Assembly (NCBI RefSeq): GCF_963921235.1
Contig: NC_086097.1
Location: forward strand, 87,546,001 to 87,610,000
Length of the DNA: 64,000 nt
Source of the DNA: Mobula hypostoma
Taxonomy: Eukaryota
Direction: 5' to 3'
This document shows, one piece after another, positions 6,694 to 31,862 of this stretch. The position numbers and the translations under genes are program-made. Under the pieces are notes generated by a model. That model saw nothing but the letters and a program-made list of their open reading frames with translations, made no database searches and was not told the DNA's origin. Each line of letters opens with the position of its first letter. Position 1 is the stretch's first letter.

Positions 6694-6941
6694 GCACAAA
6701 ATGATGGAGGAAATCAGTGGGCCAGGCAGCATCAATGGAAAAAAGCACAGTTAATGTTTTGAGCTGAAAACACAGACAACAGAAAATCTGCAGATACTGG
6801 AAATCCAAGCAACACACAAAAACCACATTTTCGCTCATAACGTCGACTGTACTTTTTTCCATAGATGCTGCCTGGCCTGCTGAGCTCCCAGCATTTTGTG
6901 TGTGTTGCTCAGTTTTCCAGCATCTGCACATTTTCTCTTGT
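6694..6941. mobile_element. Penelope-like fold-back insertion (subfamily B), three-piece
   Basis: Inverted arms containing ggccaggcagcatc and gatgctgcctggcc. TSD tcatggttgtgttaa (6679-6693) vs tcacggttctgttaa (6942-6956). Confidence 0.75.
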
Positions 6942-7145
6942 TCACGGTTCTGTTAAATGTTAGCATAGAACTTGAAAGTTGGCTGGCTCAAGATATAACT
7001 GTGGTTTGGAGGAGAATTGAGGAAGGATAATTGAGGTAGTATCTGAATTCAACTCCTAGGTGTTGTGAGCTTCACATATGGCAACAGCTAATATTGGCTA
7101 TACTTGTTTTTTTGCCTAAATATAATCATCTTGAGGTGCTTTTTA

Positions 7146-7590
7146 CTTGCTGCCCATTACACCATTGGTGTTCAGGGCAGCATTTGAAGGTCCTCCATCT
7201 CTAGCAGTGTTCAGGGCTTCTTTCTTCGCGACAGTTGCTTCCTTCTTCGCGACAGTTGCTTCCTCTCAGTCTTCACTACTGTCACTCAGGGAAGTCCCGG
7301 ATGGAGACTCAGGAATACCATTGCACTCTGATGTAGAAGGTTTTTTGCAGAGCTGTTTCCGCAAGAATTTTGTTTCACCAGTCAGAGTTGTTAGCCCTGA
7401 GCTGAACCCCTGAACCTGGAGGACTGTTGGACCAATCCTGGTCTGGCCTTTACTCTTTGACTTGTTTGGCAAGGATGACCCTACCAAGAGCCAAAGCATA
7501 AAACCCTGTCTCCAGTCAACATTACTCTCTGGGTCATTGAAGTACACAAGCCTCCAAACCCAACAACGAGATTGTCCTCTTGGAGGTTGA
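7146..7590 (-). mobile_element. RTE-derived non-autonomous (5'UTR plus 3' tail) element
   Basis: The minus strand reads gtcctccaggttcaggggttcagctcagggctaacaac, resembling RTE 5'UTRs, and ends with ...gctgccctgaacaccaatggtgtaatgggcagc. No coding capacity. A 21-bp tandem duplication lies at about 7222-7264. Confidence 0.5.
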
Positions 7591-7852
7591 GGTGCTTTGC
7601 AGAGTTTAAAGCATGGGTTTCTGGGTAGTGAATTCTCTATTTTCGCTGAATTGTGGACGCTGAGAATAAATGCAGTATATTTATCTGAACTTTGGCTTTT
7701 TTTCAAGTAGATTTGATGACGGATGTGACTTGCTGATTGCAGTTCAGGTATGGTTGTATTTCAGGACAGCCAGAGATCTGTATTGTTGATCCAGACTTGC
7801 AAAGTCAAATCCCACCATGTCATCTGGGGAATTGAATTCCAATTTTTTTTTT

Positions 7853-7978
7853 CAAACAAGAGAAAATCTGCAGATGCTGGAAATCCAAGTGACACACACA
7901 TGATGCTGGAGAAACTCGGCAGGCTAGGCAACAGTATGGATAAGAGTCGACATTTTGGGCGGAGACCGTTCATCAGAA
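7853..7978 (-). mobile_element. Penelope-like terminal fragment (subfamily B), single arm
   Basis: aaatctgcagatgctggaaatccaag...gagtcgacattttgggcggagaccgttcatcag; the fragment ends at the hammerhead CUGAUGA box. Confidence 0.7.
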
Positions 7979-9321
7979 GAATTATTATTTACCAGTATTT
8001 GAAAGAAAGCTGGTCTTTCTAGTGATGACATGGAATTGCTGGATTGCTGTGAAAATAAAATCTATAGTTCATTAGCCTCCTTTTTAGGCAAATAAATCTC
8101 AGTGTGACCTATGTGAAAGTACAGACTTGAAAATGTATTTTAATTGACTTCTGACTCAGCCTGTACAGTCCACATCCCTTAAATAAATGAAAAAAAAAGA
8201 TGCCACCTGTATGCATTTGAAAATGTATGAAGTTTACTCATTTGGTTTGGGGGAAAGATCATATTTGTATCCTGTATGTGATAACGGATGGATGTGTTGG
8301 GTAAAAACCATAAGCCAAGTTTTGACAACTATTGGCACGGTTTAATGTATTTATATCTGTGGTGGAGACGGATGTCAAAACTGAAAGCAAAGCTCTAATT
8401 TTGACCATTTAAAAAAAATCAACACTTCATTCCAGAAGAGATTGAATTAGAATGTCTTGTTCTCTGGTTGCTGATAGAGCAATTAAGGTGTTTCCTGTTT
8501 TAAAGGACCTGCAACAATTGTGTCTTGACTTGTTGCATGAGTCATGCACTGATATGAGAATGTAATTCTGGTAACGCAGGATAATGTTGCCCAATGCAGT
8601 AAATTAATGCTTCTGTGAAGTACATTTTTGTGCCCTGTTTATCACACCTGTTTACATTATTCCTTGGGTTTGGTTCACACTATATTGAGCTAAATCTGAC
8701 CTGAATGGTCTTGTTTAATTTCCCTGTTAAATACTGCAAAGCAATTAACAGCACATAAACTATATTTTTTGTGTTGAAGTTCTTTACGTATTGTGATGTA
8801 AAGTGCCATTCTGAAAAGTTATTTTGTTCTTAAGTTTCCTCAGAATGGAAAACAGAACTGAATTTTTTGTGTTGCAGCAGTATGTTTGGATATTGACTCT
8901 TGTATTCATGTGTCAGAAGATTTCAAAACAGAAAATATTGCTTTTATTATTGCTTTTTTCCTATACTGCTGGCCATTAATGCTGCTCATTTGAAAGTTTC
9001 CCAACAGTTAACTAGGTGAGATACAGATTTAAGCTTCCTTGACTCCAGCCAAGAGGAAAATACTGAACTTGCTGAGCTCTTTTTTCCACAATTACAGAAT
9101 GTCGCAAGTACTTCATAGTCAACAAAATTGCTTTGGAGTGTAGATGTTGAATGGGGTTATGTGGTAGATAGTCCATGTAGAGTAAGATCTCAAGGAGTAA
9201 GGATGAATGGCTTTAAGATAAGAGATAAAATGTGTGGAGTGAGCTTGAAGAATGCTAAACCCAGGCTGTAGCTAAAGCAGGGGTATGCTAGAAGCAGTAC
9301 TCCAACAGCATTTATTTGCAT

Positions 9322-10082
9322 TTCAAGTCAAGTCGTCACTTTTTATTGTCATTTCAACCATAACTGCTGGTACAGAACGTAATAGAAATGAGACTACGTT
9401 TTCCAGGACCATGGTGCTACGTGAAACAATATAAAAACTACACTGAACTATGTAAGAAAAAAACACAAAAACTACACCAAACTACAGACTTACCCAGGAC
9501 TGCATAAAGTGCACAAAACAGTGCAGGCACTACAATAAACAATAAATAATAAACAAGACAATATGCACAGTAGAGGGTGTAGTAGGTTGGTGTCAAGCCA
9601 GGATCTGGGTATTGAGGAGTCTGATGGCTTGAGGGAAGAAACTGTTACATAGTCTGGTCATGAGAGCCCGAATACTTCAGTGCCTTTTGCCAAACAGCAG
9701 GAGGGAGAAGAGTTTATATGAGGGGTGCGTGAGGTCCTTCATAATGCTGTTTGCTTTGCGGATGCAGCGTGTGGTGTAAATGTCTGTGATGGCTGGAAGA
9801 GACACCCCGATGATCTTCTCAGCTGACCTCACTATCTGCTGCAGGGTCTTGCAATCCAAGATGGTAGAATTTCTGAACCAGGCCGTGATGCAGCTGCTCA
9901 GGATGCTCTCAATGCAACGTCTGTAGAATGTGGTGAGGATGGGGGGGTGGGGGTGGGAGATGGACTTTTCTCAGCCTTCGCAGAAAGTAGAGATGCTGCT
10001 GGGCTTCCTTTGCTATGGAGCTGGTGTTGAGGGACCAGGTGAGATTTTCTGCCAGGTGAACACCAAGAAATTTGGTGCTCTT
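9322..10082 (-). mobile_element. Rex1/Babar LINE 3' end
   Basis: ORF 9677-9859 DCKTLQQIVRSAEKIIGVSLP...HPSYKLFSLLLFGKRH is a typical Rex1 C-terminus. Tail aataaaaagtgacgacttgacttg on the minus strand. Confidence 0.8.
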
Positions 10083-10437
10083 TACTCTTGAAATGCTGTG
10101 GCTACAGTTTGAATGTTGGAAAATGGGAATGGTATAGATAGGGGTATAGTAGCTGGCACAGACGTGATTCTCAGAAAGGCCTTGCTGTGTAACTCTAAGC
10201 AGAAAATAAGTTGAATAATCAAGTAATCCAGAATGATTTACTTTATTGAAATACAGCGTGGAATAGTCCTTTCCGGTCCTTCAAGACACATTGCCCAACA
10301 ATCCTGAGATTTAATTCTAGTCTATTTATGGGACAATTTACAATGACTAATTAAGCTACCAACCCGTATGACTTTATGGTTGAGGAAAGAATATGCCCAG
10401 GGCATTATGTAAATTCAAACTCATTTGACTGGTCCTC

Positions 10438-10790
10438 TGGGTGGCACAGTAGCACGGTGGTTAACGCATCACTTTACAGTGACCGCAGTCGCCGATCGGG
10501 ATTCAATTTCTGCAGCTGCCTGTAAGGAGTTTGTACGTTCTCGCTGTGACCGTGCAGTTCCCTCCAGGTGCTCTGGTTTCCTCAAACTTTCCAAAGATAT
10601 ACAGTTAGGATCAGTGAGTTGTAAGCATGCTTTGCTGACACTGGAAGCATGGCGGCTCTTGCGAGCTCCCGAGCACAATGCTTACTGATTTGATAATGAT
10701 CATAAAATAAAGCAGACTGTATGTTTCACTGTATGTTTTGAGGTTTCGATGTACATGTGTGCAAATAAAGCAAATATTTATCTTCAAAAA
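10438..10790 (+). mobile_element. tRNA-derived V-SINE
   Basis: Head ggtggcacagtagcacggtggtta...gattcaatttc, then V-domain-like gcctgtaaggagtttgtacgttctc...ggtgctctggtttcctc...ccaaaga. A partial minus-strand relative lies at about 10240-10400. Confidence 0.7.
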
Positions 10791-11227
10791 GATCTTTAGT
10801 ACCATGTAGTCCTTTACATCTGCATGAACCATTCAATAAAATGTCAGGACCTTACTGTGATATGTCTCTGCTGATGGATGCCTGCTTTGACAATGCAGGA
10901 CTTGCATATTGAGAAGATTGTCTGCTTCATGGAGCTTGAACTGACAACCACCGTATCTGGCTGCAGTGACCAGTGGAAAAACCTAGGGACTTGTTGTATT
11001 CCCTGGCTTGTGAATTTATTTTCCCACAATAACCATTTATGATTATGACAATGTTCATCATAACCTGCATTGTGTGCAAATGTATCGAAGCACAAATGAT
11101 TCTATTCTCATGTGCTGTCTAGGGTTATATGCATTAATGGGCCATACTGGGACCATACTGGGTCTGGGTATGTATTAAAAGGTTCTTACACAGGTGACCT
11201 TGTTGAAAAGTACTTATTCTTGAGGTT

Positions 11228-11265
11228 CAACACGAGGAAATCTGCAGATGCTGGAAATACAAAGC

Positions 11266-11301
<36 letters not shown>

Positions 11302-11447
11302 ACTGGAGAAACTCAGCAGGTCAGGCAACATCCATGGAACTGAATTTATAGTCGATGTTTCAGGATGAGTTTTGGCCTGGAACATCAACTATTTTTTTCA
11401 TTTCCATGGATGCTGTTGAGTTCATGCAGCATTTTGTGTGTGTGTTG
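11228..11447. mobile_element. Penelope-like fold-back insertion (subfamily B) with internal (CA)n expansion
   Basis: TSD ttattcttgaggtt (11214-11227) vs ttattgttgaggtt (11448-11461). The inverted arms join at a decayed hammerhead near 11350-11390. (CA)n at about 11268-11298. Confidence 0.8.
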
Positions 11448-11596
11448 TTATTGTTGAGGTTGAGTGGTTTTGAAAAGTTTGAACTGCCGAGGGCAAATGT
11501 CCGATTTGTCTTTTGAACCTGCAACACATCCTTTTTGTGAGTGCTAGCTTTGCTTGGGGATGAATGGCTAATGTTTCCTTTCCTTCTCATTTTCAG

Positions 11597-11668
11597 AATA
11601 ATTCCAGCTGCCTTAAAAATGGAAATAGTGAATGTGCATGCCAAGCTTCTGAGCATCTGAAAATAAAG
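11597..11668 (+). other. Candidate 72-nt host-gene exon
   Basis: Strong pyrimidine tract tttcctttccttctcattttcag before it and donor AAG|gtgagg after it. Length is divisible by 3 and phase 0 is open (NNSSCLKNGNSECACQASEHLKIK). No homology recognised. Confidence 0.35.
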
Positions 11669-11829
11669 GTGAGGTTAATTTATTGTTTTAAAATGACTCC
11701 CAAATCATCTATTTGTTTTGATTGATGTCCTGTACACTTCACTGTTTTCTTGTTTTATTTTGGATTTCCAATTATCAGAGCTTCTAATAAACTGACAGCT
11801 CTAAATGACTTTTGAATGGAGTGCAGGTG

Positions 11830-12465
11830 CTCTGCAAAATGATCTCCTAGTCTAGGCCTGTTTTGCCAATGTAGAGGAGGTCATCTTGAGTTTCAAGTTG
11901 CATTTTCTCTGCTTTCACCATGATGATGCCAAATCCAATCTAGAAGAACAGCATCTCCTATTCCTTTTGAGTAGTCAAAAAAAATTCAGGTTATCCACTC
12001 CCCTTTTTCCACTCCTACCAGTCCATCCAGGGTCTCCCTCCTTGTTCACTTTTTCCATATCTTCCTACTCCCTCCCCCACCCCACTTGTTAACTGCTTTC
12101 ATCACCGACTCCTTCCCTCTTGTCCAAGACACAGGCGCACAAACGTGGCTCCATCTACCTATTTATTTTGGTTATTTTTCCACCTATTATCTTCAGCCTC
12201 TGTCTCAATACTCTCACTTCACTTTCTTGGTTCCACTGCCCCCAAAACCTCCCCCACCTTCTCCCTGTCTGGTTCCGCCTAACACCTTCCAGCCTCCCTC
12301 TGTCTCACCCCTCTCTTTCATCCTTACACACTCAGCCTTGATGTTGAGATCTCAACCAGAAATGTCTACCATCGCTTTGCTTCATAGATGCTGCTTAACC
12401 AGCTGATTTCTTACAGTAGTTTGTTTTGCTCCAGATTTCAGCATCTGCAGTCTCTTGTGTCTCCT
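11830..12465 (+). mobile_element. Older, diverged Penelope-like 3' portion
   Basis: ORF 11886 contains DAKSNLEEQHLLFLL, paralogous to EATLRLEEQHLIFRL at 53350. A pyrimidine-rich spacer and tail catagatgctgc...agatttcagcatctgcag follow. A further decayed hairpin lies at about 12560-12765. Confidence 0.65.
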
Positions 12466-12829
12466 TTCAGGAATTTCTGTTCTAAATACTTCTAGATTAT
12501 TTAGATTTTATAACTGTACTGGTCCTATTGCATTTGCCTCAGAGAGCAGGATCATTTGAAATTACAGATGGAAGATGCTAAGGATACTCAGTAGGTCATG
12601 GAAAGCATTCATAGAAAGAGAAGCTTAATTAATGTTTCATGTTGATGAGCTTCTATTAGAACCATTTTGGTGAGATGAGGTGACATGATACATTAACTCT
12701 CCTTCTCCTCTTTTCTGATATTTTTCAGCATTTTGTGTTTGCTTTAGATTTCCATCATCTGATTTTTGCTCTTTGATTGATTTTATGTATGTATTCATCT
12801 GTCTATCTACTCAGCTATTGTCTTTCATC

Positions 12830-13095
12830 CCTTTGTGCCTTCCGGCCCTTTGAGCTACACAGCCTAGTAGTCCCCCAATTTAACCCTAGCCTAATCACGG
12901 GGCAAATTACAAGGACCAATTAACTACCCACCGATGCATCTTTGGACTTATGGGAGGAAACCGGAGCCCCCGGAGGACATCCACACAGTCACAGGGAGAA
13001 CGCACAAACTCCTTACAGACAGCATTGGGAATTGATCGCGGGTCACTGATACTGTGAAGTGTTGTGCTAATCACTAGATTACCAGGCCTGCCTGT
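12830..13095 (-). mobile_element. V-SINE
   Basis: gggaggaaaccggagcccccggagg...ggagaacgcacaaactccttacagacagc is the reverse complement of the V-domain at 10515-10600. Confidence 0.7.
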
Positions 13096-13664
13096 GTGTC
13101 TGCGATCCCATAATGGAATAAGAATTGGCTTTTTAAAAAAAAAGTGATCCCTGCCGTCAGAATAACGTGTAAATGTTAACAACCATATAGCTACACGTGT
13201 GCCACAGGAATGCCATTCAAGTGAACCCTTGTCTCGTCACTGCAGTTATCAATCTATATTGGTCATAATAAAAACAGACTTGGAGGTACACAACAAGTCA
13301 AGTTGCATCTTTGGAGAGTAATCAAAATTAACATTTCAGGTCAATGACCTTTCAAAAGAAAGGAATCAAGTTTTAGGGAGAGCAAAGTGAATGTCCATGG
13401 TCATGTGGAGTAGCTTCCTGTTTATTTTAATGTCAGCTGACTTTAACTTAAAACAAGAATAGTCAACTGTCTTTGTCATCTTGCCATCAATATATTGTTC
13501 TGCTACTGGACATCCATAACAAGATGATAAGACAGTTGAACCTGTTTCAGTGATACAGAGAGGAGCGTCACAACTGCACAAAATTAGATGTTTAATCCTG
13601 ATGCTCATTAGAGAAACTGTGACTTCTATGTCCATCTGGCTGAAATCTGCCAAACACGGTATCA

Positions 13665-14329
13665 AGCTTCAAATTCCTTGGTGTCCACATTTCTGAGGAT
13701 CTCACCTGGTCCCTGAACTCCTCCATCCTGATCAAAAAGGCGCAACAGTGCCTTTATTTCCTGCGGAGCATCAAGAAAGCTCACCCCTGTCCCAGGATAC
13801 TAACGGACTTTTACCACTGTACCATTGAGAGCATACTCACCAACTGCATCTCAGTGTGGTATGGCAATTGTCCCGTATCGGACCGCAAAGCACTCCAGCG
13901 TGTGGCGAAAACTGCCCAGCGGATTATTGGCACCCAATTACCCACCATTGAGAACATCTACCATAAACGCTGCCTGGGCAGGGCAAAAAGCATTATCAAG
14001 GATTCATCTCACCCTAACCATGGACTTTTTATTCTCCTCCCATCCAGTAGGCGCTACAGGAGCCTCCACTCCCGCACCAGCAGGCACAGGAAGAGCTTCT
14101 TCCCTGAGGCTGTGACCCTGCTGAACCTCACATCACAGCGTTAAGCAGTATTGCACTCATATTTTACTGTCTCAGTACTTCATATTTGTGTGCTGTAGCA
14201 CTTACTTTTTATTCACAGTTATTTTGTAAATAACACTATTCTTTGCATTTCTGGTTAGATGCTAACTGCATTTCATTGGCCTTGTATCTGTACTCAGCAT
14301 AATGACAATAAAGTTGAATCTAATCTAAT
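13665..14329 (+). mobile_element. Rex1/Babar LINE 3' end
   Basis: FKFLGVHISEDLTW motif and ORF 13854 WYGNCPVSDRKALQRV...LLPSSRRYRS...SFFPEAV. Tail aataaagttgaatctaatctaat. Confidence 0.85.
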
Positions 14330-15124
14330 GGCGAATGGACAGTTCATTGGGTCTAATTAGATAGCCTCTTAACAGTTGCCTATGCGATGGAGCAAAAAAG
14401 CATTAAATCATTTTATAAAAGAATTTGGATGTTTTTTCTCTGATCCAGATGGAGAGAGGGAATGGGAAGAAGGATCAGTAGAGTTAACATGCTTCAATTC
14501 CTCTAGATATTCTGCTCCTACAGTGCTGGTGGGTGGTGATATATGTACTGCAATCCTCTTACTCCAAGAGTAGGCATAGATGATGCGTATCTCCTTTCCA
14601 CTATTAGTGGTAAAGTGTAAGGTGTGGAGTTTAAGCTTTTCCCTCACAGCTTTGCTTTAATTTGTAGAAATTGGTCTGCTCCCAGCAGAATTGAGAATTC
14701 AGGTGAGGTTAATTAACAATTAGTGATAAGGGTGCTACACAAGTAATAAGACATATTTATAAGGTTAGGGCTTATGCTGAAACCATATGTTTTTTAAAAA
14801 TTTCCTCAGAGATCCTGGAAGTTACTGTTTCCAGAATAGATAACTCAATACTGTGAGAGAGCAGGGTTAATAGTCTGCATTTTACAATCTTACTAGTTAC
14901 TAGTCAATAAAAATGTAATCAGAAAGGTATCAACATAATTTTAGTTTAGATTTCTCTTTTTAATTCCATATGGATATGAAGTATATGATTAAAGACTTTC
15001 ATGAATAGCTGAGACTGAGACTAGCTTTTCAGATAGAGTGTGCATATGGGTAGTAGAGCTGTCTGCCTTCAGGCTCCATCAATGCATTATAGTTATTTTT
15101 GCAGTCATTGCTGTAGTGTAAGTT

Positions 15125-15430
15125 TGTGAACATTGAATGTAGAACAGTGTAGTACAGGAACAGATCTGTGCTGACAGTGATGCCCATTTAAGCTACACAT
15201 TTACTGGCATGTAGTCTGTATCCGCCCATTCCTTATCTGTTCGTGTGCCTGTCTAAATGCCTCTTGCACGTTGCTATCATTATTCGCTTCTACCACTTCC
15301 CAGGCAGTGTGTTCCTGGCACCTACCACTCAATACCTGCCTCGCACATCTCCTTTAAACACTTCTCCCATTCACCCTAAAGCTATGCATTCTGTATTTGA
15401 CATTCCCACCCTGGGGAAAATGACTATCTA
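15125..15430 (-). mobile_element. CR1-type LINE 3' end
   Basis: gaacattgaatgtagaacag...ctaccacttcccaggcagtgtgttcc...ccctggggaaaa, similar to 5590-5740. Confidence 0.55.
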
Positions 15431-15809
15431 GTGCTTTATTTTATGAGCATGTATATTGTATGCACACTTTCAATTCACTGAAATGTATATAATATAAATA
15501 TGAAAATTTGATTTTTATTCCTAGAACATGGGTGTTGCTGTGATGGGGAGTATTTGACCCACATTTCTAATCACTCTAGAAGGTTGTGCTGCCTAGATGT
15601 GTAATTTGGGGAAAATGGTGATGTTTCTATGCATCTACTTACAGCAGTTCCCTTGGTCTAAATGTTGGTGAAGGCTCTCAGCCTGAAACATCGACTGTTT
15701 ATTCCCATCCATAAATGAGCACCTCCAGCACATTATGTGTATTGCTTGTTTGAAAGGTGTTATTAAGAACCCTTGCTAACTTGATTTGCAGCATCATGTA
15801 AATGCTACA

Positions 15810-16503
15810 GAGTAGACGTCATGATATTTTTTAACGTGGTCGATGCAGTTGCTTCAATACTCTGCAATTCGAAGTCGCTGCCCGTGGAGGGGCCACTGGG
15901 TCCCAATACTCTCAGAGATGTTATCGAAATGTGTAATTTATGGATTGGACTGTAGTTCATATCAGCCTCTTTCAGTTCTATTGTGTTCTTGTCCATTTAT
16001 TCTTGCTACTGATTGGTGGGCTGGGGTTTTGGGGTCTGATGTTGTTTCTCCATGTGGGTGATCTGTTAGTCTATGCGAAGGAGCGGTTGTGGGGGGGGGG
16101 GGAGGATTTTGCAGTTAGCAAGTTTTTGTTTCTTTTTCTTTTAGTGTGGGGAGGGGATTGATGTCTGTCTTTTAACTACTTCAGTCATTTTCTATATTTT
16201 CTGGCTAGCTGGAGAAGACGAATCAAAGTTGCTGGTGAACGCAGCAGGCCAGGCAGCATCTATAGGAAGAAGTACAGTCGGTGTTTCAGGCCGAAACCCT
16301 TCCTCAGGATGAAGGATCTCGGCCTGAAATGTCGACTGTACCTCTTCCTAGAGATGCTGCCTGGCCTGCTGCGTTCACCAGCAACTTTGATGTGTGTTGC
16401 TTGAAATTCCAGCATCTGCAGAATTCCTGTTGTTGGAGAAGACAAATCTTAGTTGTGTTCTGCATACATATATTGATAACAAAAATGGACCTTTTGAACC
16501 TTT
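15810..16503 (+). mobile_element. Non-coding element with Rex1-like 3' tail, interrupted by a Penelope-like hairpin
   Basis: After removing 16225-16434 the 3' end reads gaagacaaatcttagttgtgttctgcatac...gataacaaaaatggaccttttgaacc, like the Rex-type tail at 52600-52670. Confidence 0.45.
16225..16434. mobile_element. Penelope-like fold-back insertion (subfamily A), 210 bp
   Basis: TSD ggagaagacgaatc (16211-16224) vs ggagaagacaaatc (16435-16448). The inverted arms join inside the hammerhead (…cctcag|gatgaagg…). Only the plus arm has the terminal tail. Confidence 0.88.
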
Positions 16504-17000: not shown

Positions 17001-17843
17001 CAGCTCTTCTACAGACAAACTGCCTCCTGTTTGAGCCAAAAATTTCAAATTTTGACTCATCAGTCCAGAGCATTTGCTGCCAAAGAGCCATTCCTTCTAA
17101 GTGGAACTGAAGCAGAAGGGCTGAGGTGCTGAACAATGGCAACAAGTTCTGTGGACTGATGAGTCAAAATTTGAAATTTTTGGCTCATACAGGAGGCAGT
17201 TTGTCTGTAGAAGAGCTGCAGAACGCTACTTGGATGAGTGTCTGCCACCAGTAGGGAAACACAATGGAGTTCCCTACAGGTTTGGAGCCACATTTCTGCA
17301 AACGCGATCAGGTCAGAATTAATGGAATCCTTAGTGCTGGGAACTACACACAGACTTTCATGCATCATGCAATACTAACAAGAAGGCACCTGATCAGTCC
17401 CAACTTCGATGTGCAGCAGGGCGATAACCCCATACATGCGACCAAGGCCATAAGTAACTATCTTCAGCAAAAAGAATGACAGGGAGCTCTGTACAGATGG
17501 TATAGCTTCCACAGAGCCCTGATCTTACATCACTGAGGCTGTCTGGGGTTACCTGGAGAGACAAGCAAGTGAGACGACCAAGGTCTGCAGAAGAACTGTG
17601 GCAAGTTCTCCAGGATGCTTGGAACAACCTCCCAGCCGATTTTCTTATAAAACCTCAAAACCGGGTATCCAAGAGAAATAATGCAGTTTTAAAGACAAAG
17701 GGTGATCACACAATTTTTTTTTACTGTTTACTGCTCTTTATAGTAAATTTTTTGATATTTAAAAACTTTTCATTTCATTACTTTTGAAAGCATTTTCGCT
17801 TTACAATTTTTTTTTACATTTGCTAGACTTCTGCACAATACTG
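17001..17843 (+). mobile_element. Decayed Tc1-like transposon 3' half (DD38E spacing), with an inverted duplication at its left end
   Basis: WQQVLWTDESKFEIFGS at 17137, then degenerate QQ(D)NDPKH, PQSPDL..IEAVW and RPRSAEELWQVLQDAW. Right TIR gacttctgcacaatactg followed by TA at 17844-17845. Confidence 0.8.
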
Positions 17844-17994
17844 TATATACTGTAAATCATATTCAATCCAATCCTTGTAAATGCTTCATATAACTGTTGA
17901 AAAAGACACCACTGCCTTTCCAAACTATTTCATGGTGAGTGGGAAAAGCAATCTGATCATAGATTTATTTCTAGTAATTAGAATCCTTAAACCA

Positions 17995-19702: not shown

Positions 19703-21027
19703 CAGACATCCCACCCTGCAAAAACTCATTTCAGGGAGGTAGCACTACCAGTTCAGGGAGGGTAACACCCCTGCCCCCTGCAACCCCATATTCCCCCCGC
19801 CCCCCACGTTCGACCTCCAAGGGTGTATGTAATACTTTGTTTAGTCATTTTGTCTAATCTGTAAACCGAGTTGGGTATATGCAGATAATGTGACATTAAA
19901 ATATATACTTATGTTATATTATCATGTTTATTCTATTACAGCTTTAAGCAAGTCTACAGGGAGTTTGGCCTCATCACGTAGGACGTCAATAGCGCAGCTC
20001 CTTAGCAGCCAGCCAGCTAGTTTAAATAACGTTAGCTATGCTAATGAATGAATGACATCTGTTAAACTCACTTCAACATGTCTTTTACATTTTAACCCAC
20101 CATGGACAATAGAAAATTCACTATTGCAAACGTGCAGCGAGCAACACTGTCATTATTTTTGAGGTCGACTGTAAAGCCCGCCCAAAGAGAAAACTGATAG
20201 GTCTACTTAGCAGGGGTCCGCAATCATTTTTGGACTGCAGACCAGTTTAATATTGACAATATTCTTGCGGACCGGCCGACCGTGGGCGGGGGTGTTAATC
20301 ACAACCGGAATATAGGTGATAAGTCAATCGCATCATAACATTTTAAGTAACGTTTGGATATTAAACACACAACGCATATTTTCCCCGTATGAACATATAA
20401 AATCATTGCAACACACCAATATCGATGAATCAGTGGGAGCCCTGGGCTTGTTTCTCTGCAACAAATCTATTCCGCAAGTTAGTTTTCGTTGCATTCATTG
20501 CAGAAAACTCCGCTTCACCGAGATATGTTGGACATGGAAGTAACATTTTCGGTGCTTTCATGGCTATATCAGGATATTCAGCCTCGACTTTGATCCAGAA
20601 TGCCAGCAAAGATGTTATGTCAAACATACTTTTCAGCCTGTCGTCATTTGCAAACTCGAGGAGTTGATCTTTCTCCCGCGCTGATGTGGATGATTCACCG
20701 GAAACATTCACAAATGGGTCACGGATCCATTCCTTTGCATGTCTCGGGTCACTGATGACCTCCCGTGTGTTCAAGTTCAGCAGTGCATGACAGGGAATGA
20801 GGAAAGGTGCAGCTGACTCATATAATTTCATATCGCCAAATCATATTGTTTCCTCGTGGCCTGGTGGCTGGGGACCACTCTTAGCACGAAGAGAGACCAA
20901 TCAGGATGCTCACTCTTCCTCTCAAAAAAATCTATTTCCGGGATATTGTATATAATTTCCGGGCGTCAGGGAGCCACTATCGATATGCGGGAGACTCCCA
21001 GAACTTCCGGGAGAGGTGGGATGTCTG
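19703..21027. mobile_element. Non-autonomous DNA transposon (hAT-like) with 13-bp TIRs, host of the Charlie insertion
   Basis: TIRs cagacatcccacc (19703) and ggtgggatgtctg (ends 21027). Flanks caatta and cagtta. Repeated subterminal gggag motifs. Confidence 0.65.
20211..20879 (-). mobile_element. Charlie/Buster-group hAT internal-deletion derivative retaining the transposase C-terminus
   Basis: Termini caggggtccgcaa and ggctggggaccact. ORF 20430-20831 EWIRDPF...FWIKVEAEYPDIA...PTYLGEAEFSAM..KTNLRNR is a hAT dimerisation domain. Left TSD ctacttag; the right side keeps cttag. Confidence 0.85.
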
Positions 21028-21224
21028 CAGTTAGTTGAAGGTCTGATTCACTAAGCTATCAGGGCACATTCGTCAGTGTAGAGTGTTCAAGGATGAGTTT
21101 TTTTGACTGTCTTTGTTCTGGTATTGAGTCCATGCAGGTCAGCGAGTGATCCATCAAGTCTGTAGTTCAGACAGACACCACATTCAGGGTCTTTGATTGC
21201 ATGGTGTAACACGTGAATGAATCG

Positions 21225-21785
21225 CTCAAAATTCTAGAGGGATTTTATATGTGTAGTCTGAGTTCAATCCTTGGCATCTGTTGGCAGGACCGAGTCACAA
21301 ACCTAGAGGTCCTCGACAGGGCAGGAACCATGAGTGTTGGGGTCATGTTTGTAAATGCACAGCTTCAGTGGACAGGGCACGTCATATGCATGAAAGATTC
21401 CTGAATCCTCAAGCAACTACTATATGGTGAGTTTTCGCTGGGCAGGAGGAATCAAGGCAAGCCCTGTAAGAGGTTCAAAGAACATGTGAAAGGTAACACC
21501 GCACACGCTGGGCTAAAAACAGCAGACAGAGTGTGAAGACCTGGAGTGACTGGTAAGCCTTAGACAGAACCACTCACGACAACCTGGAGGAGAGACACCA
21601 GGTAGTACTAATTGCTAGCTGATAAGGAAAGCAATAGCAGCGGCTCTACTTCCAGATCCAGCATGGGTTTCGTGTCCTTATTGTGGACGTCTGTGTCACT
21701 CACAATTTGGACTCAGGAGCCACCTACAAACACACAACAGAACTGTACAAATGTAGCTGTCATTGTTGGATACGTGGAATGCAGT
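21225..21785 (+). mobile_element. RTE-clade LINE 3' end
   Basis: ILGICWQDRVTNLEVLDRAG...QLQWTGHVICM..KQLLYGE...GKPCKRFKEHVK, then a terminal C2H2-like CPYCGRLCHSQFGLRSHLQTH. Confidence 0.8.
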
Positions 21786-24700
21786 GGAGAGCTATGGATC
21801 ATATGGAGGCAGACAGGTTTAGTTTATTTTGATATCTGGTCTGTGCTATATTGTATTATCTCACTTCTAGCTCAACCTTGTCATAAGAGGTGTAAGTACT
21901 CCATTGTTAGCAGTCAAGACTACTATTCTTGGCTTGTATAGTGACCTCCAAGTGATTATCTTATCAAATTGCAATACCAAGCATTCAAGGAAGGGGATAA
22001 TTAGTAAACCTTAAGTAAATTCAGGATTTTCCCACTGTTCCGATTTCACTCTTTGACACAGACTGGTGGAGATAAACTTTTGTCTTGAATGTATGCACAT
22101 CTCAGACAGTATAGATAATCTGATGTGTACTAACTAGATTGTCTAACAAATCTTCTGTAGTTTGAAAAGGCTCTAAGAGGTGCCTCCTGGGGTAGGTGGA
22201 TAGGTAGCAACTGAAGAGACACAGATCACCATCCTTAATGCACTTCTCCAATGCTGAGCTTTGAGGTTCTGAACACTCCTGGATACTCCTTCTCCACCTT
22301 GGGCAGATGTGGATTGGGAAACCGAGGAATCGATGGGCATGTTGTGTTTTCTCAGAGGATTTGAGCAAGTACTTGATAAATCTTTTCCTGTCACCTGGTA
22401 AATTTATTCAAAGCAGACAGAGAAAAGACTGCTTTTGGAATTTTGTATTTGGGATTTGCATAATGGAGCTGATGTTAATGAGAGTCTTAATGATGGAGAT
22501 CAGTGAGGACATTGATACTGGTTTGCTTATCCTTCTGTGGATTTTGCTGTGCCTGGTGTAGGTGATCCATGTCTAAAAGTAAATGGGAGGTTAAGGATGC
22601 CACAAAGATCTGTTGCCAGGTAGAACATGGGTTTTGTGTCAGGTCTAAGGTCTTAATCTTCAAACACACTTTCCTTCATCAGCTGAAGACTGCTGGTGTA
22701 TTGAATGTACAAAGAACAGCAGTCTGGACATGAGATACTGTGGCTGCAGCCTCTGTTAATGGGATGGGGGTGGAGTGGTGTTGAGGTGGAAGGCGTTTTC
22801 AGTGAACTGTCTGTAAATTACAGAGCATAGTTCTCTTTGGCTTATGCACTGCATTTTTATAATTAAAATATTTTGACCACAGAGCTATCAGCTTGCTACT
22901 TTGATTTAAGCATGAGCATTGGTATAGATGTTGTCATATAATATTTGTTCAAATACATCTATGATTCAGCCAAGTAGCAAGTTTTTGCTCTTATAATATC
23001 AGAATATTTTCAATTTCATTAGGAAAATTTTGTTTGCTATTGCATATTCTGCAGTGTTTATAAATAGAATTATAGAATTTTGATATTAAAATGTCATTTA
23101 TAGACTTTAAGTACTGATTAAGTCCTCCTAAATTACCCCAGGTAATTGAAGTTTATTTCAAAGTGTATGGAATACCATGTAGCACCGCTGATGGGGAAAT
23201 GTATGCCCATTACAGCTTCCTTATGTGTAATATCATTACCACTGTGATGGATCCAAATAATGATTCTGTCCCACATATAACCAACTTATAACAGTCCTCA
23301 TGAAAGGTAGGTATTTATGGTCTTTGTAGGTAAACTTGCCCTTTTCATACTTTATCCTTAACTGGCTTGCATATATAATAATGAAAGAACTGCATCGGAT
23401 GCTGTAACTTGAGTTTCTGGTTGCTGAACCTCTGAACTGGACTTGATTCTGTGATGTGCTGGCAAATAATTACCATTTCAGATGTTTAACTTTTAACTCC
23501 CAGCTTGCATTATATGTATGTGTCTCAAATTTACATTAAAGCCTTTAGTACTACTGATGAAATGGTGAAAGCTGGTGTAATGCAAGATGAAATTTCAAAC
23601 AGAGCAATTGGTGCACATTAAAACTATCAGCATGATGATGACTAAATGGTATGTTCCCTTGAGGTTGACTTATGGGATCAAAATTGGCTGGTGCACTGGT
23701 CACGTGTTAATTTCTTCAAGACTCTGTTAACCGAAGTTAAATTATATGTGTATATTTTGCATAGCTGGTTAGGCACTACCTGCTATGTGTATGTCTGCTG
23801 AGCTGAGATGGAGAAGTGTATAAGCCATGGTGTGAATGTGTCAATAGTGTCTTTTGATGGGGACAGATGTAAGCCATTATAACCTGGATCATATTTCTAT
23901 CGTCTTTATTCCTTCACCTAGAATATGTCTGCCTTTCATCTATTGATCTCTTCTTTGAAATATTGTGTGGACATAAGGTAACCCCAAAGTTTTTTTTGGG
24001 GAACAGTTCAGATTTATGCTGTCTTTTGTGTGAAGAAGTGTATTTTTGATGTTGAATTGACCTGACTCCAATTTGTTATACTTCCTTTATCCTGCAATCC
24101 ATCACCAGAGGAAACATTTACTCTGCACACTCTATTAAATCCATTAGTTGTCATATTAAACATTTCATTTAGAGCATCCGTCAAGTCAACTGTACTCAAT
24201 TAGATAGAAGTATACATAGTCTTGTTCTGATGATTTAACTCTTTGATTTCCAGTATCATCTTGGCTAAAACAATTTCTTCCAAAGTTTTTTATTTAGTGG
24301 TGTCCTGAATTGAATGCAGCCACCTGAATGCAGTCTAAACAGAGTTTTATGTAAGTTTCAAAAGCAATAGCTCTACTTGTATGAGTTACAATCTCGTTGT
24401 GGGAGAGACACCAAGATTTTATAAGCCTTCTAAGTTGCTTCTTGAAACTGACTGGTATATTTTTACTAATTTCTTACTACTCATTTTAGCAACAATTTAA
24501 TTGTTTTCGAATAGAATTTGACACTGATCATTTATAGTGTTAGTGGTGCAGATAATGAGCTGGTTGGGTTGAAAGGTTGAGAAAGGTCTTTAAAGGGGAA
24601 ACATGAGTTGATAGAAATGGAGAAGTTAAGGAAAGGAATTCTCAAGTTTTAGCTCTTAGGCAACAGAAGACATGGCTACCAGAAGTGGAGTGATTGAAAA

Positions 24701-25804
24701 CGGTGCACACAGATGCTAGAATACTGATGCTTCTGTGGGTTGGAAATCTGAGATCTGGAGTATGATGACATGGAAAATTATGAAAATTGGTATTTTAAAA
24801 ATTGAATGATTACTCAACCAGAAGCCCCCTTATCTTTGGAAATGTATTTCTGTACATTCAGTTACTTTGTTTAGCACCTTCTCTTTCTCCGCCCCCCCCC
24901 CCACCAACACAAACAAAAGAAAAAAACACTTTAGGATTGCCTTCACCAGATGGTATGATGCAGTGAAAGTGGCTTTTGAGATGGACAGTTAATGTTGGCC
25001 TCCTCTGTGATGTCCTGATACTATACAACGGATGAATGAATAAAGTTGAGGCCCTGAATTTTCCTTTACTCTCTTCTCAAACCACCAAGGTGCTATGGCA
25101 CAGTTTCACAATTGCTCCCAAGCTCGTGCTACTTTGCTGAAGTGATCATTATCTTGAGCCTCTTAATTCCAGCACATTTGGAGCTGCCTTCTGTTTCTGG
25201 TGTCTATGGACATGTGTTTCTGTCAGGGAATATTGGCTAGCTGTTTTTTTTTTTGCCTCCACCCCTGCTGCTGCTGCTGCTATTACTACTATTAATCTAT
25301 TGATACTACATAATTCCTTATGGTTACCTGAGCATTCATCCAAAAACACCTGGATGTTATCCCACTCTTCTGCTGGTCAAGACACTCACTGGCCTGCTTG
25401 ATTGATTGATTCAGAATCCTGCTACTTCTGGGAATGTAAATAATGTGGTTTTACAGCATGTATGTCTCTTATTTAAAATAACTCTGGTTACATGTTTCAA
25501 TCTGCTTTTTAGAGTATGCATGTGGGACATTTTAACCATAAATGTACAGGATGGAATGCTAGACCATTCAACAGCCCAGTCCCAGAAATGAAAGCATTGC
25601 CATTCTTTTAGAATGAGTCTCTGCACAAGTTTATGCATTGTCCACTACAATTGAGTTCTTGACTTGTTTGGTCCACAGAATCGCCTTTCTCCCTTTCTCT
25701 CCAAAGAACACAATACCTATATTGTTGTCAGATTTCTATTTTGAATTGCATTTTCATTCTGCCATGAGACAAACCAGAATGGCTAACGCAATAAATAACA
25801 CATT

Positions 25805-26160
25805 TATCATAGAAAATAGTCCCTTCAGTCCATCAGGTTTGCAACGACCATTAAACGCCCATTTATCTGAATCCTACACAAATCCCATTTCATTCTCCCT
25901 ACATTCTCATCAACTTCCCCAGATTCTGCCTCTCAACTATGCATTTTGGGTGAATATAGTGACCATTTGACTTGCTAACCCTTGCATCTTTGGAATGTGG
26001 TGGTGGGTGGGGGGGGGGGGTGTTGATTGTAGCACTGGAGGAAACCTACAGAGTTGCAGGGACAAAGCTACACTCTCCACACGGCACCAGAATTCTGGAT
26101 TCAACCTGGGTTGTTGCAATTATGAGGCAGCTAGTGTACTCTGCACCACTGTGCTGCCAT
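25805..26160 (-). mobile_element. V-SINE, decayed
   Basis: gcatctttggaatgtgg...gcactggaggaaacctaca...acactctccacac...ctgcaccactgtgctgcc. Confidence 0.55.
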
Positions 26161-26633
26161 CTATAACTGTTTAATAGACAAATGCGGTGCATTATCTACG
26201 TATGAAGGTTGGATAATGATCAATAACTGGGGGAGTATTATAATTTTTGTTCCTTATGCCATCTCGATGTTGCATGTGCTCTTCAGGGACGTGATGAAGA
26301 TTCAGTAGTCTATTGACATAACTGAGCATGCACAAAAGTTGTTCATTGAGAATGCTAGAGTGGGAACTGTTGTTATTAATACAACTACAGTGCATTCTGG
26401 TAAGGGGGAATATAGATGGAAATCCAGTTACTTTATTGAATATATACACACCCCCAGGAAGTGCTATTAGTTTCTTCTAGAAAATTACTAATATTATGGT
26501 AACTGAAACAGAAGGTCTCTTGATATGTGGGGGAGACTTGAATTTACAATTACAACCAAAGTTAGACTCTTCCAATAGGAAAAACTTATGAAACAAAGTC
26601 CTTACACAAGAAAGTTAACACTCTTTTTGAGGA

Positions 26634-26819
26634 CAACAGGAATTCTGCAGATGCTGGAAATTCAAGCAACATACATCAAAGTTGCTGGTGAACGCAGCAG
26701 GCCAAGCAGCATCTGTAGGAAGAGGTGCAACGAAGGGTCTCGGCCTGAAATGTCGACTGCACCTCTTCCTACAGATGCTGCTTGGCCTGCTGCGTTCACC
26801 AGCAACTTTGATGTGTGTT
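26634..26819. mobile_element. Penelope-like fold-back insertion (subfamily A), 186 bp, inside the L1 endonuclease
   Basis: Perfect 14-bp TSD actctttttgagga (26620-26633 and 26820-26833). About 60-bp near-perfect inverted arms flank a truncated hammerhead (acgaagggtctcggcctgaaatgtcgac). Confidence 0.92.
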
Positions 26820-27112
26820 ACTCTTTTTGAGGATGTTGGTCCAATTGATATATGGAGGGACCTTTTCCTCGACAGAAGGGATTACACTCATTATTCTGCC
26901 CCCCATTCCGTATATAGAAGAATAGACTATTTCATAACATTTGGAAAAGATAGAGACAAAATAATCACCTGTGGAATTAGGACAATAGATGTAAGTCACC
27001 TATATATTTATCTCAAACAACAGAAATTTTGCAGATGCTGGAAATTCAAGCAACACACATCAAAGTTGCTGGTGAACACAGCAGGCCAGGCAGCATCTGT
27101 AGGAAGAGGTGC

Positions 27113-27148
27113 AGTCGACATTTCAGGCCGAGACCCTTCGTCAGGACT
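27113..27148 (-). ncRNA. Minimal type I hammerhead ribozyme motif (helix III with a U-G wobble)
   Basis: Minus strand reads AGTC CTGACGA AGGGTCTCGGCCT GAAAT GTC GACT. Confidence 0.65.
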
Positions 27149-27883
27149 AACTGAAGGAAGAGTGAGTAAGGGATTTGAAAGTTGGAGGGGGAGGGGGAGA
27201 TCCAAAATGATAGGAGAAGACAGGAGGGGGAGGGATAGAGCCAAGAGCTGGACAGGTGATAGGCAAAAGGGGATACGAGAGGATCATGGGACAGGAGGTC
27301 TGGGAAGAAAGGCAAGGGGGGGGACCCAGAGGATGGGCAAGAGGTATATTCAGAGGAACAGGGGGAGAAAAAGGAGAGTGAGAGAAAGAATGTGTGCATA
27401 AAATAAATAACAGATGGGGTACGAGGGGGAGGTGGGGCCTTAGCGGAAGTTAGAGAAGTCGATGTTCACGGCCTCCTCTACTGTAAAGATGAAGCCACAC
27501 TCAGGTTGGAGTAACAACACCTTATATTCCGTCTGGGTAGCCTCCAACCTGATGGCATAAGCATCGACTTCTCTAACTTCCACTAAGGCCCCACCTCCCC
27601 CTCGTACCCCATCTGTTACTTATTTTTATGCACACATTCTTTCTCTCACTCTCCTTTTTCTCCCTCTGTCCCTCTGAATATACCTCTTGCCCATCCTCTG
27701 GGTCCCCCCCACCTCCTTGTCTTTCTTCCCGGACCTCCTGTCCCATGATCCTCTCGTATCCCCTTTTGCCTATCACCTGTCCAGCTCTTGGCTCTATCCC
27801 TCCCCCTCCTGTCTTCTCCTATCATTTTGGATCTCCCCCTCCCCCTCCAACTTTCAAATCTCTTACTCACTCTTCCTTCAGTT

Positions 27884-27919
27884 AGTCCTGACGAAGGGTC
27901 TCGGCCTGAAACGTCGACT
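27884..27919 (+). ncRNA. Minimal type I hammerhead ribozyme motif, intact core
   Basis: AGTC CTGACGA AGGGTCTCGGCCT GAAAC GTC|GACT: stem I AGUC/GACU, CUGANGA box, short stem II, GAAA box, loopless palindromic ACGU helix III and a GUC triplet (predicted cut after 27915). Confidence 0.8.
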
Positions 27920-29420
27920 GCACCTCTTCCTACAGATGCTGCCTGGCCTGCTGCGTTCACCAGCAACTTTGATGTGTGTTGCTATATATTTATCTGTTAA
28001 CTTTGACCTACAACCAAAGAATACTATGTGGAAACTAAATGTAAGTCTACTCAAGGATCCCTATTTTAAGGAACAGATTTAAAAAAAATTGGTCTTTACT
28101 TAGAATTCAGTGATAATGGAGAGATTTCACCTCCCATTCTATGGAATACTCTGAAGGCTATCTTAAGAGGGAAAATTATAGTGATATCTTCATATAAGAA
28201 AAAGTAAGGAATAAAACATTAGAGGAATTACAAAATAGGCTGAAGGAACAAGAAAAAAACACAAATTGAGTTTGGCACAGGATACACAAGAGGAAACTAA
28301 AAAAATTAGGAATGAAATTAATAGTTTGGCTACACAAGAAATTAGAAAAAAAATAATGTTTCGGAAACAGAGACACTATGAAAGTGGATCTAAATCTATG
28401 AAAATACTGGCGTGGAAACTGGGGAAAAAAGATAGCAGAAAATACAATTCATAGAATTAGGGATCGAAGAACGAAAGTGATTTTAAAAAAAAATAAATAA
28501 GCCATGTGAAATTCATGAAGCTTTTGAAATGTTTTGCAAAACTCTATATTCCAAAGTTCCAGGGGGAAACTTAACTCAAATTGACACCTTCCTGAATTCT
28601 TCGGAGTTACCCACTTTAAGCAAAAAACAAAATAGAAAGATGACTGCTGACGTAACTGAAGCTGAACTAAAAACTGCAATTAGTAGGCTTAAATTAAGCA
28701 AGTCACCAGGATCAGATGGATATATGGCAGAGTGATATAAAGAGTTTAGAAGTGAGTTAATCCCTGTTTTACTCCCCACACTGAACTGGGCTCTGAGAAA
28801 GGCGCAAATGCCACCTAGCTGGAAGGAGGCAATAATCTCAGCTATACCGAAAGAAGGCAAGGATAACATGGAATGTGAGTCATTTAGACCAATATCTGTT
28901 CTTAATGTGGATTATAGAATATTTACCTCCATCATGTCCAAACGATTAGAAGAGTTTCTACCCACACTGATACATTATGATCAGATAGGTTTCATACAAC
29001 AACGCCAAACACAAGACAGTATACAAAGGACACTTCACATTATGGATCATATATATATAAAAAAAATGAAATTGTAGCAATAATAATAAGCGTGGACGCT
29101 GAAAAGGCATGTGATTTGGTTAATTGGAATTTTCTTTATAGAGTTTTGCATAGATTTGGTCTACATGACACAATTATTAAAACTATACAGGCACTATATG
29201 ATAATCCTACTGCCAAGATTAAAATCAATAGATATTTATCTAATAGTTTTACCCGAGAAAGGGGCACGAGACAGGGTTGTGCATGGTCACCGCTACTCTC
29301 CGCATTATATCTGGAACCATTAGCTCAATACATCAGACAAAATGAAGATATCAGGGGAATTACTATTAAAGGGGGTGAGCATAAATTGGCCTGTTAAGCG
29401 GATGACATTTTGATCTATCT

Positions 29421-31676: not shown

Positions 31677-31862
31677 TTTAACTACATAACACCTCATAGG
31701 CCTGATTTTATTCTCACAAGTCAATGAATATGTTGTAAAAAAAAGATCACTCCCTACTCTGTACATAGTTTTCTTCTTTCGATTGTTCTTTCCTCTCTTC
31801 TATAAGTGTATACCTCAGACAAATATTATGTGGAGATTTGTGACAAATATGATTATAAGGGA

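What the first reader, a model, noticed from the sequence alone, without database searches (positions are those of the whole stretch)
6694..27981. Stereotyped fold-back (hairpin) insertions with 14-15 bp TSDs and a one-sided tail
Seen: five independent insertions consist of two inverted arms of the same pLTR: 6694-6941, 11228-11447, 16225-16434, 26634-26819 and 27014-27981. Each is flanked by a 14-15 bp TSD (two perfect, three with 1-2 mismatches). In each case one outer end keeps the ~35-nt tail (cttgaatttccagcatctgcagaattcctgttg) and the other stops at or shortly before gatgtgtgttg. Established: inverted 5'-truncated pLTRs and a 3' tail extension are known for Penelope elements. Inference: the constant TSD length gives the nick stagger of the GIY-YIG nuclease, and both target strands prime on the 3' end of the RNA at two fixed positions. 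The results are MITE-like hairpins that are really retrotransposition products.
Basis: partly seen in the sequence, partly recalled or inferred. Interest (0 to 1): 0.75.

Follow-up and report, generated by a model that had tools for sequence, protein, structure and literature searches.

The report
Short head-to-head Penelope retroelement insertions
These hairpin-shaped inserts are stumps of a very abundant Penelope-like jumping gene, laid down back to back in a pattern already described for this class, and their seams suggest that each half was copied separately from RNA at the two cut ends of the target DNA.

Summary
The five inserts and their 14-15 bp target duplications are real (0 of 1500 random pairs score as well; L1 homologs confirm the duplication at two sites). 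They are 5'-truncated ends of a Neptune-type Penelope-like element (PLE) of a ray. Corrections: 6694-6941 has three pieces; two inserts belong to an older subfamily; the tail-less end is a 14-nt zone, not a fixed position; only 5 of 14 PLE loci in the window are fold-backs, and three well-preserved loci show no duplication. Inverted arm, one-sided tail, TSD, extension of both strands and two RT start sites are all published, and this scan noted the same pattern before in this and other genomes. What the window adds, on small numbers: six TSDs of 13-15 bp; in 4 of 4 two-armed inserts neither arm contains the other, the tail-less arm reaching further 5'; the arms of 16225-16433 carry different subfamily alleles; and the target matches the RNA just beyond the tail-less end (p about 0.003, post hoc). 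Best reading: both nicks prime reverse transcription on separate template segments and the cDNAs are end-joined (0.62). Not a MITE. No genome was held, so genome-wide counts are untested.

The parts
6694..6941 (.). Older-subfamily PLE insert of three pieces: tail-less minus arm 6694-6769, tailed minus piece 6770-6822 (template jump), short filler, tailed plus arm to 6941
6679..6693 (+). Left TSD copy (right copy 6942-6956), 15 bp, 2 mismatches
11228..11447 (.). Older-subfamily fold-back: tailed minus arm 11228-11363 (with expanded CA run), tail-less plus arm 11364-11447
11214..11227 (+). Left TSD copy (right copy 11448-11461), 14 bp, 1 mismatch
16225..16433 (.). Fold-back: tail-less minus arm 16225-16308, tailed plus arm 16309-16433, 2-nt overlap at the centre; arms differ at 8 of 81 sites, three of them subfamily markers
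16210..16224 (+). Left TSD copy (right copy 16434-16448), 15 bp, 1 mismatch; innermost 3 bases also match the element
26634..26819 (.). Young fold-back inside L1 ORF2: tailed minus arm 26634-26729, tail-less plus arm 26730-26819, no overlap at the centre; arms differ at 1 of 62 sites
26620..26633 (+). Left TSD copy (right copy 26820-26833), 14 bp, perfect; L1 residues 172-176 of homolog P0012 appear on both sides
27014..27981 (.). Young long fold-back inside L1 ORF2: tailed minus arm 27014-27468, tail-less plus arm 27469-27981 reaching about 90 nt further into the endonuclease region, 2-nt overlap at the centre
27000..27013 (+). Left TSD copy (right copy 27982-27995), 14 bp, perfect; L1 residues 235-237 of P0012 appear on both sides
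4882..5523 (.). Same family, inversion type: minus part 4882-5146 and tailed plus part about 5147-5523 are consecutive segments of the element with a 12-nt overlap; no TSD found
7853..7976 (-). Single tailed arm of the older subfamily; no significant TSD
53248..53875 (+). Longest single arm, used as reference: GIY-YIG C-terminal half (stop at 53446), pLTR, hammerhead motif, tail; 5' end joined to another LINE fragment over 5 shared bases; no TSD
53742..53777 (+). Minimal hammerhead-like motif (core boxes at 53746-53752 and 53766-53770, predicted cut after 53773); 10 of 16 arm 5' ends map in this stretch, none at the cut
   Evidence: sequence, fold, arm map; no Rfam hammerhead hit
58530..58623 (-). 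Single tail-less arm with a 13-bp TSD, 1 mismatch (58517-58529/58624-58636)
26400..31724 (+). Broken L1 ORF2 that is the target of two of the inserts

Best explanation
The inserts are dead, 5'-truncated integration products of a high-copy Neptune-type PLE. Its RT/GIY-YIG protein nicks both target strands about 14 nt apart (inferred). Each 3'-OH primes reverse transcription at an internal site of a template segment, either two RNA molecules or two pLTR copies of one partial-tandem RNA (inferred). One nick starts at the far site and copies the 35-nt tail; the other starts in the UG-rich stretch 30-45 nt upstream, where a few target bases can pair with the RNA, which is why that end wanders. Both cDNAs usually stop early, mostly within the hammerhead region, which gives 190-250 bp hairpins. 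The two cDNA 3' ends are joined head to head over 0-2 shared bases, and fill-in duplicates the stagger. Shown here: anatomy, TSDs, family identity, non-nested arms. Inferred: order of events, two templates, role of pairing, stagger.
For: Both arms point their 3' ends outward at the TSDs, as two target-primed cDNAs would. In 4 of 4 two-armed inserts each arm holds sequence the other lacks: the tailed arm has the tail, and the tail-less arm starts further 5' by 13, 2-6, 28 and 89 nt, so neither arm is a DNA copy of the other. The arms of 16225-16433 differ at 8 of 81 sites; at three (53758, 53782, 53791) the left arm has the state of older-subfamily arms and the right arm that of the copies at 5147-5523 and 58530-58623. 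TSD bases next to tail-less ends match the element's continuation for 2,0,3,0,2,2 nt (sum 9, null mean 2.0, p=0.003; without the doubtful 6694 end, p=0.008), against 1,0,1,1,0 at tailed ends (p=0.25). 4882-5523 has the consecutive-segment layout of L1 twin priming. 6694-6941 records a template jump onto the tail end. The nearest proteins carry RT, a CX4CxxC linker and GIY-YIG. In vitro, a Poseidon protein cuts and extends both strands, starts at two internal sites that bound the tail, and is predicted to be a dimer (PMC11167929). In four public runs the tail bin has 20-43% of the depth of the core bin, and many contigs leave the element at 53868-53874 into diverse flanks.
Against: n is 4-6 throughout, and the pairing test was designed after seeing the data; allowing G-T wobble raises tailed ends too (sum 9, p=0.04; tail-less sum 20, p=0.0001). 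Young arms are more alike to each other than to another copy (11 of 413 differences, against 21 and 18), and both arms of 26634-26819 share C53801T, seen in 1 of the 15 other arms listed (a decayed one); a single template also predicts this. The in vitro work found no difference in start site between strands, so the one-sided tail is not explained by it, and that element is of another clade with AC-rich start sites. Two independent primings give no reason for the tail-less arm to be the longer one in 4 of 4 cases unless the partial-tandem template is assumed. Deletion at the centre of a palindrome after insertion could fake non-nested arms. Three well-preserved inserts lack a TSD. The conserved 3' stem shows 0 compensatory changes in 16 pairs.
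Confidence: 0.62

Rival explanations
1. Self-priming on an antisense transcript (proposed in PMC3846280): the antisense RNA folds back at its 3' end and primes a sense cDNA that runs through the tail; the RNA-DNA hairpin is then integrated and the RNA arm is copied incompletely, losing the tail, and joined to the target by microhomology.
For: Predicts that the tail-less arm reaches further 5' (4 of 4), a variable tail-less end with target microhomology, and near-identical young arms. Published proposal for head-to-head palindromes.
Against: Needs pairing and a loop at the turn: 26634-26819 has no overlap, and 16225-16433 would need a 2-bp stem with a 2-nt loop. Predicts identical arms at insertion, against three linked marker differences in 16225-16433. 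Does not give 4882-5523. In vitro priming used sense RNA and nicked DNA.
Confidence: 0.17
2. One RNA segment copied twice: the first nick primes at the upstream site (tail-less arm), the second primes at the still free tail end and displaces the first cDNA, so it stops sooner.
For: Explains the one-sided tail, the longer tail-less arm (4 of 4, plus 4882-5523 with its 12-nt overlap) and shared variants in young arms.
Against: The arms of 16225-16433 carry different subfamily states at three sites, and those of 26634-26819 differ at 53834, where the minor base is a common family allele (about 19% of depth in run X1). Strand displacement by this RT is assumed, not shown.
Confidence: 0.12
3. One cDNA folds back on itself and is copied as DNA, or a single insert is turned into a hairpin later, with central deletions hiding the nesting.
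For: Short overlaps at the centres (2, 2, 0 and about 1 nt). 2-bp hairpin priming is proposed for inverted duplications at L1-induced breaks (bioRxiv 10.1101/2024.12.14.628481, passages).
Against: The copied arm must be nested in the first; this fails in 4 of 4 cases, by up to 89 nt, so a one-sided later deletion is needed each time.
Confidence: 0.06
4. A cut-and-paste MITE family whose arms are terminal inverted repeats.
For: Small size (186-248 bp in 4 of 5), hairpin shape, near-constant TSD.
Against: The five centres all differ; the two outer ends differ by the tail and by up to 14 nt more; arms run into the GIY-YIG coding region; the same sequence occurs as single arms and as an inversion. 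Only 2 of the 15 joints shown change strand, each in 2 contigs, but 298 joints were not shown and contigs collapse identical copies, so that check is weak.
Confidence: 0.02

Closest known systems
Inverted-pLTR insertions of EN+ PLEs, e.g. Pen2a_Av and Pen2 derivatives of Adineta vaga (PMC3846280; passages and Discussion read)
   Same: Head-to-head arms, a roughly 31-bp tail on one inverted pLTR, the whole flanked by a TSD; some copies without TSD joined by microhomology.
   Different: TSDs there are 8, 9 and 10 bp, here 13-15; there the main arm is usually long, here both arms are mostly under 140 nt; the authors proposed antisense self-priming, which the non-nested arms here fit less well.
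General PLE architecture (PMC8557442, Introduction and passages; PMC8969392 passages and supplement passages)
   Same: Inverted 5'-truncated copy next to the main copy; 30-40 bp tail often at one end only; hammerhead motif in the pLTR.
   Different: TSD length is described there as variable, set by a second cut after TPRT is complete; the six TSDs here span 13-15 bp and both ends look primed.
PAc, Poseidon of Anolis carolinensis, in vitro (PMC11167929; parts 1-3 of 4 read; term search of 3 supplement files found nothing)
   Same: Both strands cut and extended; two internal RT start sites downstream of the hammerhead bound the tail; hammerhead cleavage not needed.
   Different: Other clade (no Zn-finger linker); start sites AC-rich there, UG-rich here; no strand bias in start site there, a one-sided tail here; I saw no TSD length or inverted product in the parts read.
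L1 twin priming and the postulated 'dual priming' (PMC2837659, passages)
   Same: Two primings from the two nicks inside one TSD; 0 to a few shared bases at the inner joint; L1 TSDs there 7-20 bp, mean 14. 4882-5523 has the twin-priming layout.
   Different: Twin priming gives non-overlapping segments; these arms overlap widely, as dual priming would give, which that paper proposed but could not validate.

Membership tests
EN+ Penelope-like elements | [quoted passage not shown] | tested here: met
   Window peptide 53255-53443 is 82-95% identical to 8 ray proteins. [quoted passage not shown] The window itself holds only the C-terminal half (Pfam: no hit).
EN+ Penelope-like elements | 5' truncation with tandem or inverted pLTR arrangement and optional 30-40 bp tail | tested here: met
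EN+ Penelope-like elements | Minimal hammerhead motif in the pLTR | tested here: inconclusive
   Core boxes are visible at 53746-53773 and flanking stems form in the predicted fold (z-score -0.15), but Rfam gave no hammerhead among 19 matches at E<=1. Cleavage not tested.
EN+ Penelope-like elements | An intact autonomous copy | not testable with these tools
   No genome held; window copies are all truncated.
Neptune/Nematis clades | CX2-5CxxC Zn-finger-like linker between RT and EN | tested here: met
   CX4CxxC or CX3CxxC in P0002, P0003, P0004, P0006 and P0008, 5 of the 6 proteins read; definition in PMC8557442. Seen in relatives, not in the window.
Neptune clade | RT phylogeny placing it in Neptune rather than Nematis | not tested
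Penelope/Poseidon clade | Absence of the Zn-finger linker | tested here: not met
   Linker present in the nearest proteins.
MITE (non-autonomous DNA transposon) | Identical inverted termini and homogeneous length and centre across copies | tested here: not met
   Ends differ by the tail; 5 of 5 centres differ.
MITE (non-autonomous DNA transposon) | Termini shared with a transposase-coding element | tested here: not met
   Arms derive from the 3' end of the PLE ORF and pLTR, not from a transposase element.

The most novel reading that the evidence does not exclude
In this family, priming from both nicks on two template segments is the normal route and is ordered: a dimeric complex cuts with a fixed stagger of about 14 nt, one end starts at a fixed tail site, and the other finds its start by pairing (with G-U wobble) in a UG-rich stretch upstream. 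The many genomic copies would then be an in vivo record that settles how PLEs make their second junction and would be the first large-scale case of the dual priming only postulated for L1.
Probability: 0.3. Interest if true: 0.55.

Novelty: new member of a known kind. Interest (0 to 1): 0.3.

Why it matters
How PLEs form the second junction, the inverted copy and the one-sided tail is still open: the in vitro paper leaves the later steps unvalidated, and the older proposal is antisense self-priming. A high-copy family with short inserts offers three countable tests that separate the models: nesting of the arms, subfamily markers between arms, and target-RNA pairing at each end. In practice, such inserts can be mislabelled as MITEs or microRNA hairpins (one scores 45 bits against mir-3926, below its cut-off of 82). 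The architecture itself is not new.

Tried and rejected
Whole-genome tabulation: no genome is held. Family motif in viral, metagenome and prokaryote collections: 0 matches each. A 17-nt tail motif gave 118 metagenome loci; the best profile score was 15.7 bits over about 26 nt, so they were taken as chance. Public runs: 23 listed; 4 were laid on 53150-54000 only, so empty orthologous sites of the five inserts were not checked. Only 15 of 313 joints and 24 of 2348 loose-end rows were shown, so no junction or end distribution could be read; the tail-less end is not among the rows shown. Hammerhead cleavage as the cause of the turn: rejected, 0 of 16 arm 5' ends at 53774, nearest 53777. Conserved RNA structure at the start sites: an 8-bp stem is conserved in 8 arms but with 0 compensatory changes and the region folds no better than shuffles. 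TSDs for 4882-5523, 7853-7976 and 53248-53875: none above background even with 25-nt slack; a 11-13 bp T-rich match at 7853-7976 scored 5, which 271 of 1500 random pairs reach. The boundary of 58530-58623 was mis-set and redone. No shared target motif was evident in six TSDs (AT 53-86%). Literature searches gave no paper tabulating TSD length or arm nesting for vertebrate Neptune elements; Arkhipova 2006, Evgen'ev and Arkhipova 2005 and Repbase/Dfam entries were not seen and may state this, and figure content of supplements could not be read. PMC12602865, PMC5753468, PMC12910113, PMC2377424 and bioRxiv 10.64898/2026.07.22.740005 were term-searched and added no TSD length.
Full report
Observation. 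All five inserts are present. A boundary scan found TSDs of 15, 14, 15, 14 and 14 bp with 2, 1, 1, 0 and 0 mismatches; 0 of 1500 random position pairs scored as high as the weakest. Two inserts sit in a broken L1 ORF2, which gives an independent check: against homolog P0012, residues 172-176 occur on both sides of 26634-26819 and residues 235-237 on both sides of 27014-27981, so the target is duplicated once. In 5 of 5, one outer end has the tail. Corrections: the third insert ends at 16433; 6694-6941 has three pieces, with a second tail inside; 6694-6941 and 11228-11447 are an older subfamily.

Context. A profile of the arms finds 14 PLE loci at E<=0.003 and three weaker hits. Five are the fold-backs. 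One (4882-5523) is an inversion of consecutive segments, three are single arms, five are decayed. Of 12 loci scanned, six have a TSD: the five, plus the tail-less single arm 58530-58623 with 13 bp. The six average 14.2 bp, SD 0.75. The well-preserved inserts 4882-5523, 7853-7976 and 53248-53875 have none.

Identity. The peptide at 53255-53443 is 82-95% identical to 8 proteins annotated in Mobula, Hypanus and Hemitrygon, so the host is probably a myliobatiform ray (inference). Those proteins show RT, a cysteine linker of the CX2-5CxxC type (5 of 6 read) and GIY-YIG. The linker marks Neptune/Nematis and is absent in Penelope/Poseidon (PMC8557442); no tree was built. A minimal hammerhead motif is visible at 53746-53773 (stems), though Rfam did not report it. 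In four public runs, 7,781 to 189,577 contigs lie on 53150-54000, with depth far above the right flank, so the family is very abundant; the tool warns that depth is no copy number.

Ends. On the coordinates of the copy at 53248-53875, tailed outer ends fall at 53872-53876 and tail-less ends at 53828-53841. Hundreds of contigs leave the element at 53868-53874 into diverse flanks, and the tail bin has 39%, 43%, 20% and 35% of the depth of the core bin in the four runs; edge effects and subfamily divergence may contribute. So one position is fairly sharp and the other is a zone. TSD bases next to tail-less ends match the element's continuation more than chance (sum 9 over six ends, null mean 2.0, p=0.003; five ends, p=0.008), while tailed ends do not (sum 3, p=0.25); with wobble pairs the sums are 20 (p=0.0001) and 9 (p=0.04). 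This test is post hoc, and one end (6694) assumes a small deletion in a GT run. Ten of 16 arm 5' ends map to 53742-53777, none at the predicted ribozyme cut, which explains the similar sizes of the short hairpins.

Arms. In the four two-armed inserts the tail-less arm starts further 5' than the tailed arm, by 13, 2-6, 28 and 89 nt (1 in 16 by coin toss in this direction). Each arm therefore holds sequence that the other lacks, and neither can be a plain DNA copy of the other. Centres overlap by about 1, 2, 0 and 2 nt and all differ. The arms of 16225-16433 differ at 8 of 81 sites, and at three the left arm shares the state of older-subfamily arms while the right arm matches two other young copies; this points to two templates in that case. 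Against this, the young arms are alike (1 of 62; 11 of 413, against 21 and 18 to another copy) and the arms of 26634-26819 share a rare variant, which fits one source locus or one RNA. 6694-6941 is best read as a first cDNA that jumped onto the tail end of another template, joined to a second cDNA. 4882-5523 has the twin-priming layout with a 12-nt overlap but lacks a TSD.

Mechanism. Best supported (0.62): both nicks prime RNA-templated synthesis on separate template segments, one at the tail end and one by short pairing in the UG-rich stretch upstream, and the truncated cDNAs are end-joined. Two pLTR copies in a partial-tandem RNA would also explain why the tailed arm is shorter, but that is inference. 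Rivals: antisense self-priming (0.17), which predicts the longer tail-less arm but needs a foldable turn and identical arms; one segment copied twice with strand displacement (0.12); DNA fold-back with later deletion (0.06); MITE (0.02).

Comparison. Inverted pLTR, tail on one arm and 8-10 bp TSDs are described in Adineta (PMC3846280, passages and Discussion). The one-sided 30-40 bp tail and inverted copy are general to PLEs, and TSD length is called variable (PMC8557442). Cutting and extension of both strands, two internal start sites bounding the tail and a predicted dimer are shown for PAc (PMC11167929, parts 1-3 of 4). Twin priming and a postulated dual priming are described for L1, with TSDs of 7-20 bp, mean 14 (PMC2837659, passages). 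My nine searches found no tabulation of TSD length or arm nesting for a vertebrate Neptune-type family, but key subscription papers and Repbase were not seen. Earlier unchecked notes of this scan report the same pattern in this genome and in two other shark genomes, with TSDs of 14, 15 and 16 bp and one case of two templates; a look-up by sequence returned nothing. They are leads, not support.

Verdict. Real, mostly known. The useful addition is a set of countable asymmetries that could decide between published models on the full assembly. Novelty: new member of a known kind. Interest 0.3.

Noticed in passing
window 4882-5523: Twin-priming-type inversion of the same PLE family (consecutive segments, 12-nt overlap), abutting an unidentified ORF-bearing stretch (4239-4958, minus; no Pfam hit); no TSD.
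   Followed up: partly
window 5140-5146 and 53248: Two of the long arms have 5' ends within a few bases of the same position in the endonuclease coding region. Chance or a preferred stop; not tested.
   Followed up: no
window 53742 (tables 5c and 7): Many contigs leave the element on the 5' side at 53742 (470 in X1, 353 in X5), two listed joints return to 53742 with one extra G, and the arm at 58530-58623 starts there. May be a subfamily boundary or a transcription start.
   Followed up: no
window 26400-31724: Broken L1 ORF2, 51-89% identical in pieces to 1268-aa homolog P0012 and closest named to a teleost protein; hit twice by the PLE within 400 bp.
   Followed up: partly
window 52790-53252: LINE-like fragment joined to the PLE copy over 5 shared bases; it does not resume beyond 53875, suggesting target deletion. 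The Rex1-like label is from recall.
   Followed up: partly
window 55625-57231: Element with 202-nt inverted repeats (96%) and a DDE_3 transposase fragment (E=3e-17), Tc1-like.
   Followed up: no
window 17001-17218 and 38797-38915: Two other inverted-repeat pairs (82 nt, 94%; 53 nt, 91%) with no match to the PLE profile; probably DNA-transposon derivatives.
   Followed up: no
window 11835-12454: Older, diverged PLE copy: endonuclease fragment (38% to P0004) through a decayed tail; a weak opposite-strand fragment follows at 12581-12644.
   Followed up: no
window 11267-11300: The GT-rich stretch at the tail-less start zone has expanded into a CA/TG microsatellite in one arm.
   Followed up: no
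window 13644-14144: ORF with a Pfam ALKBH8_N hit (E=6e-16), a model that by recall often matches LINE C-termini.
   Followed up: no
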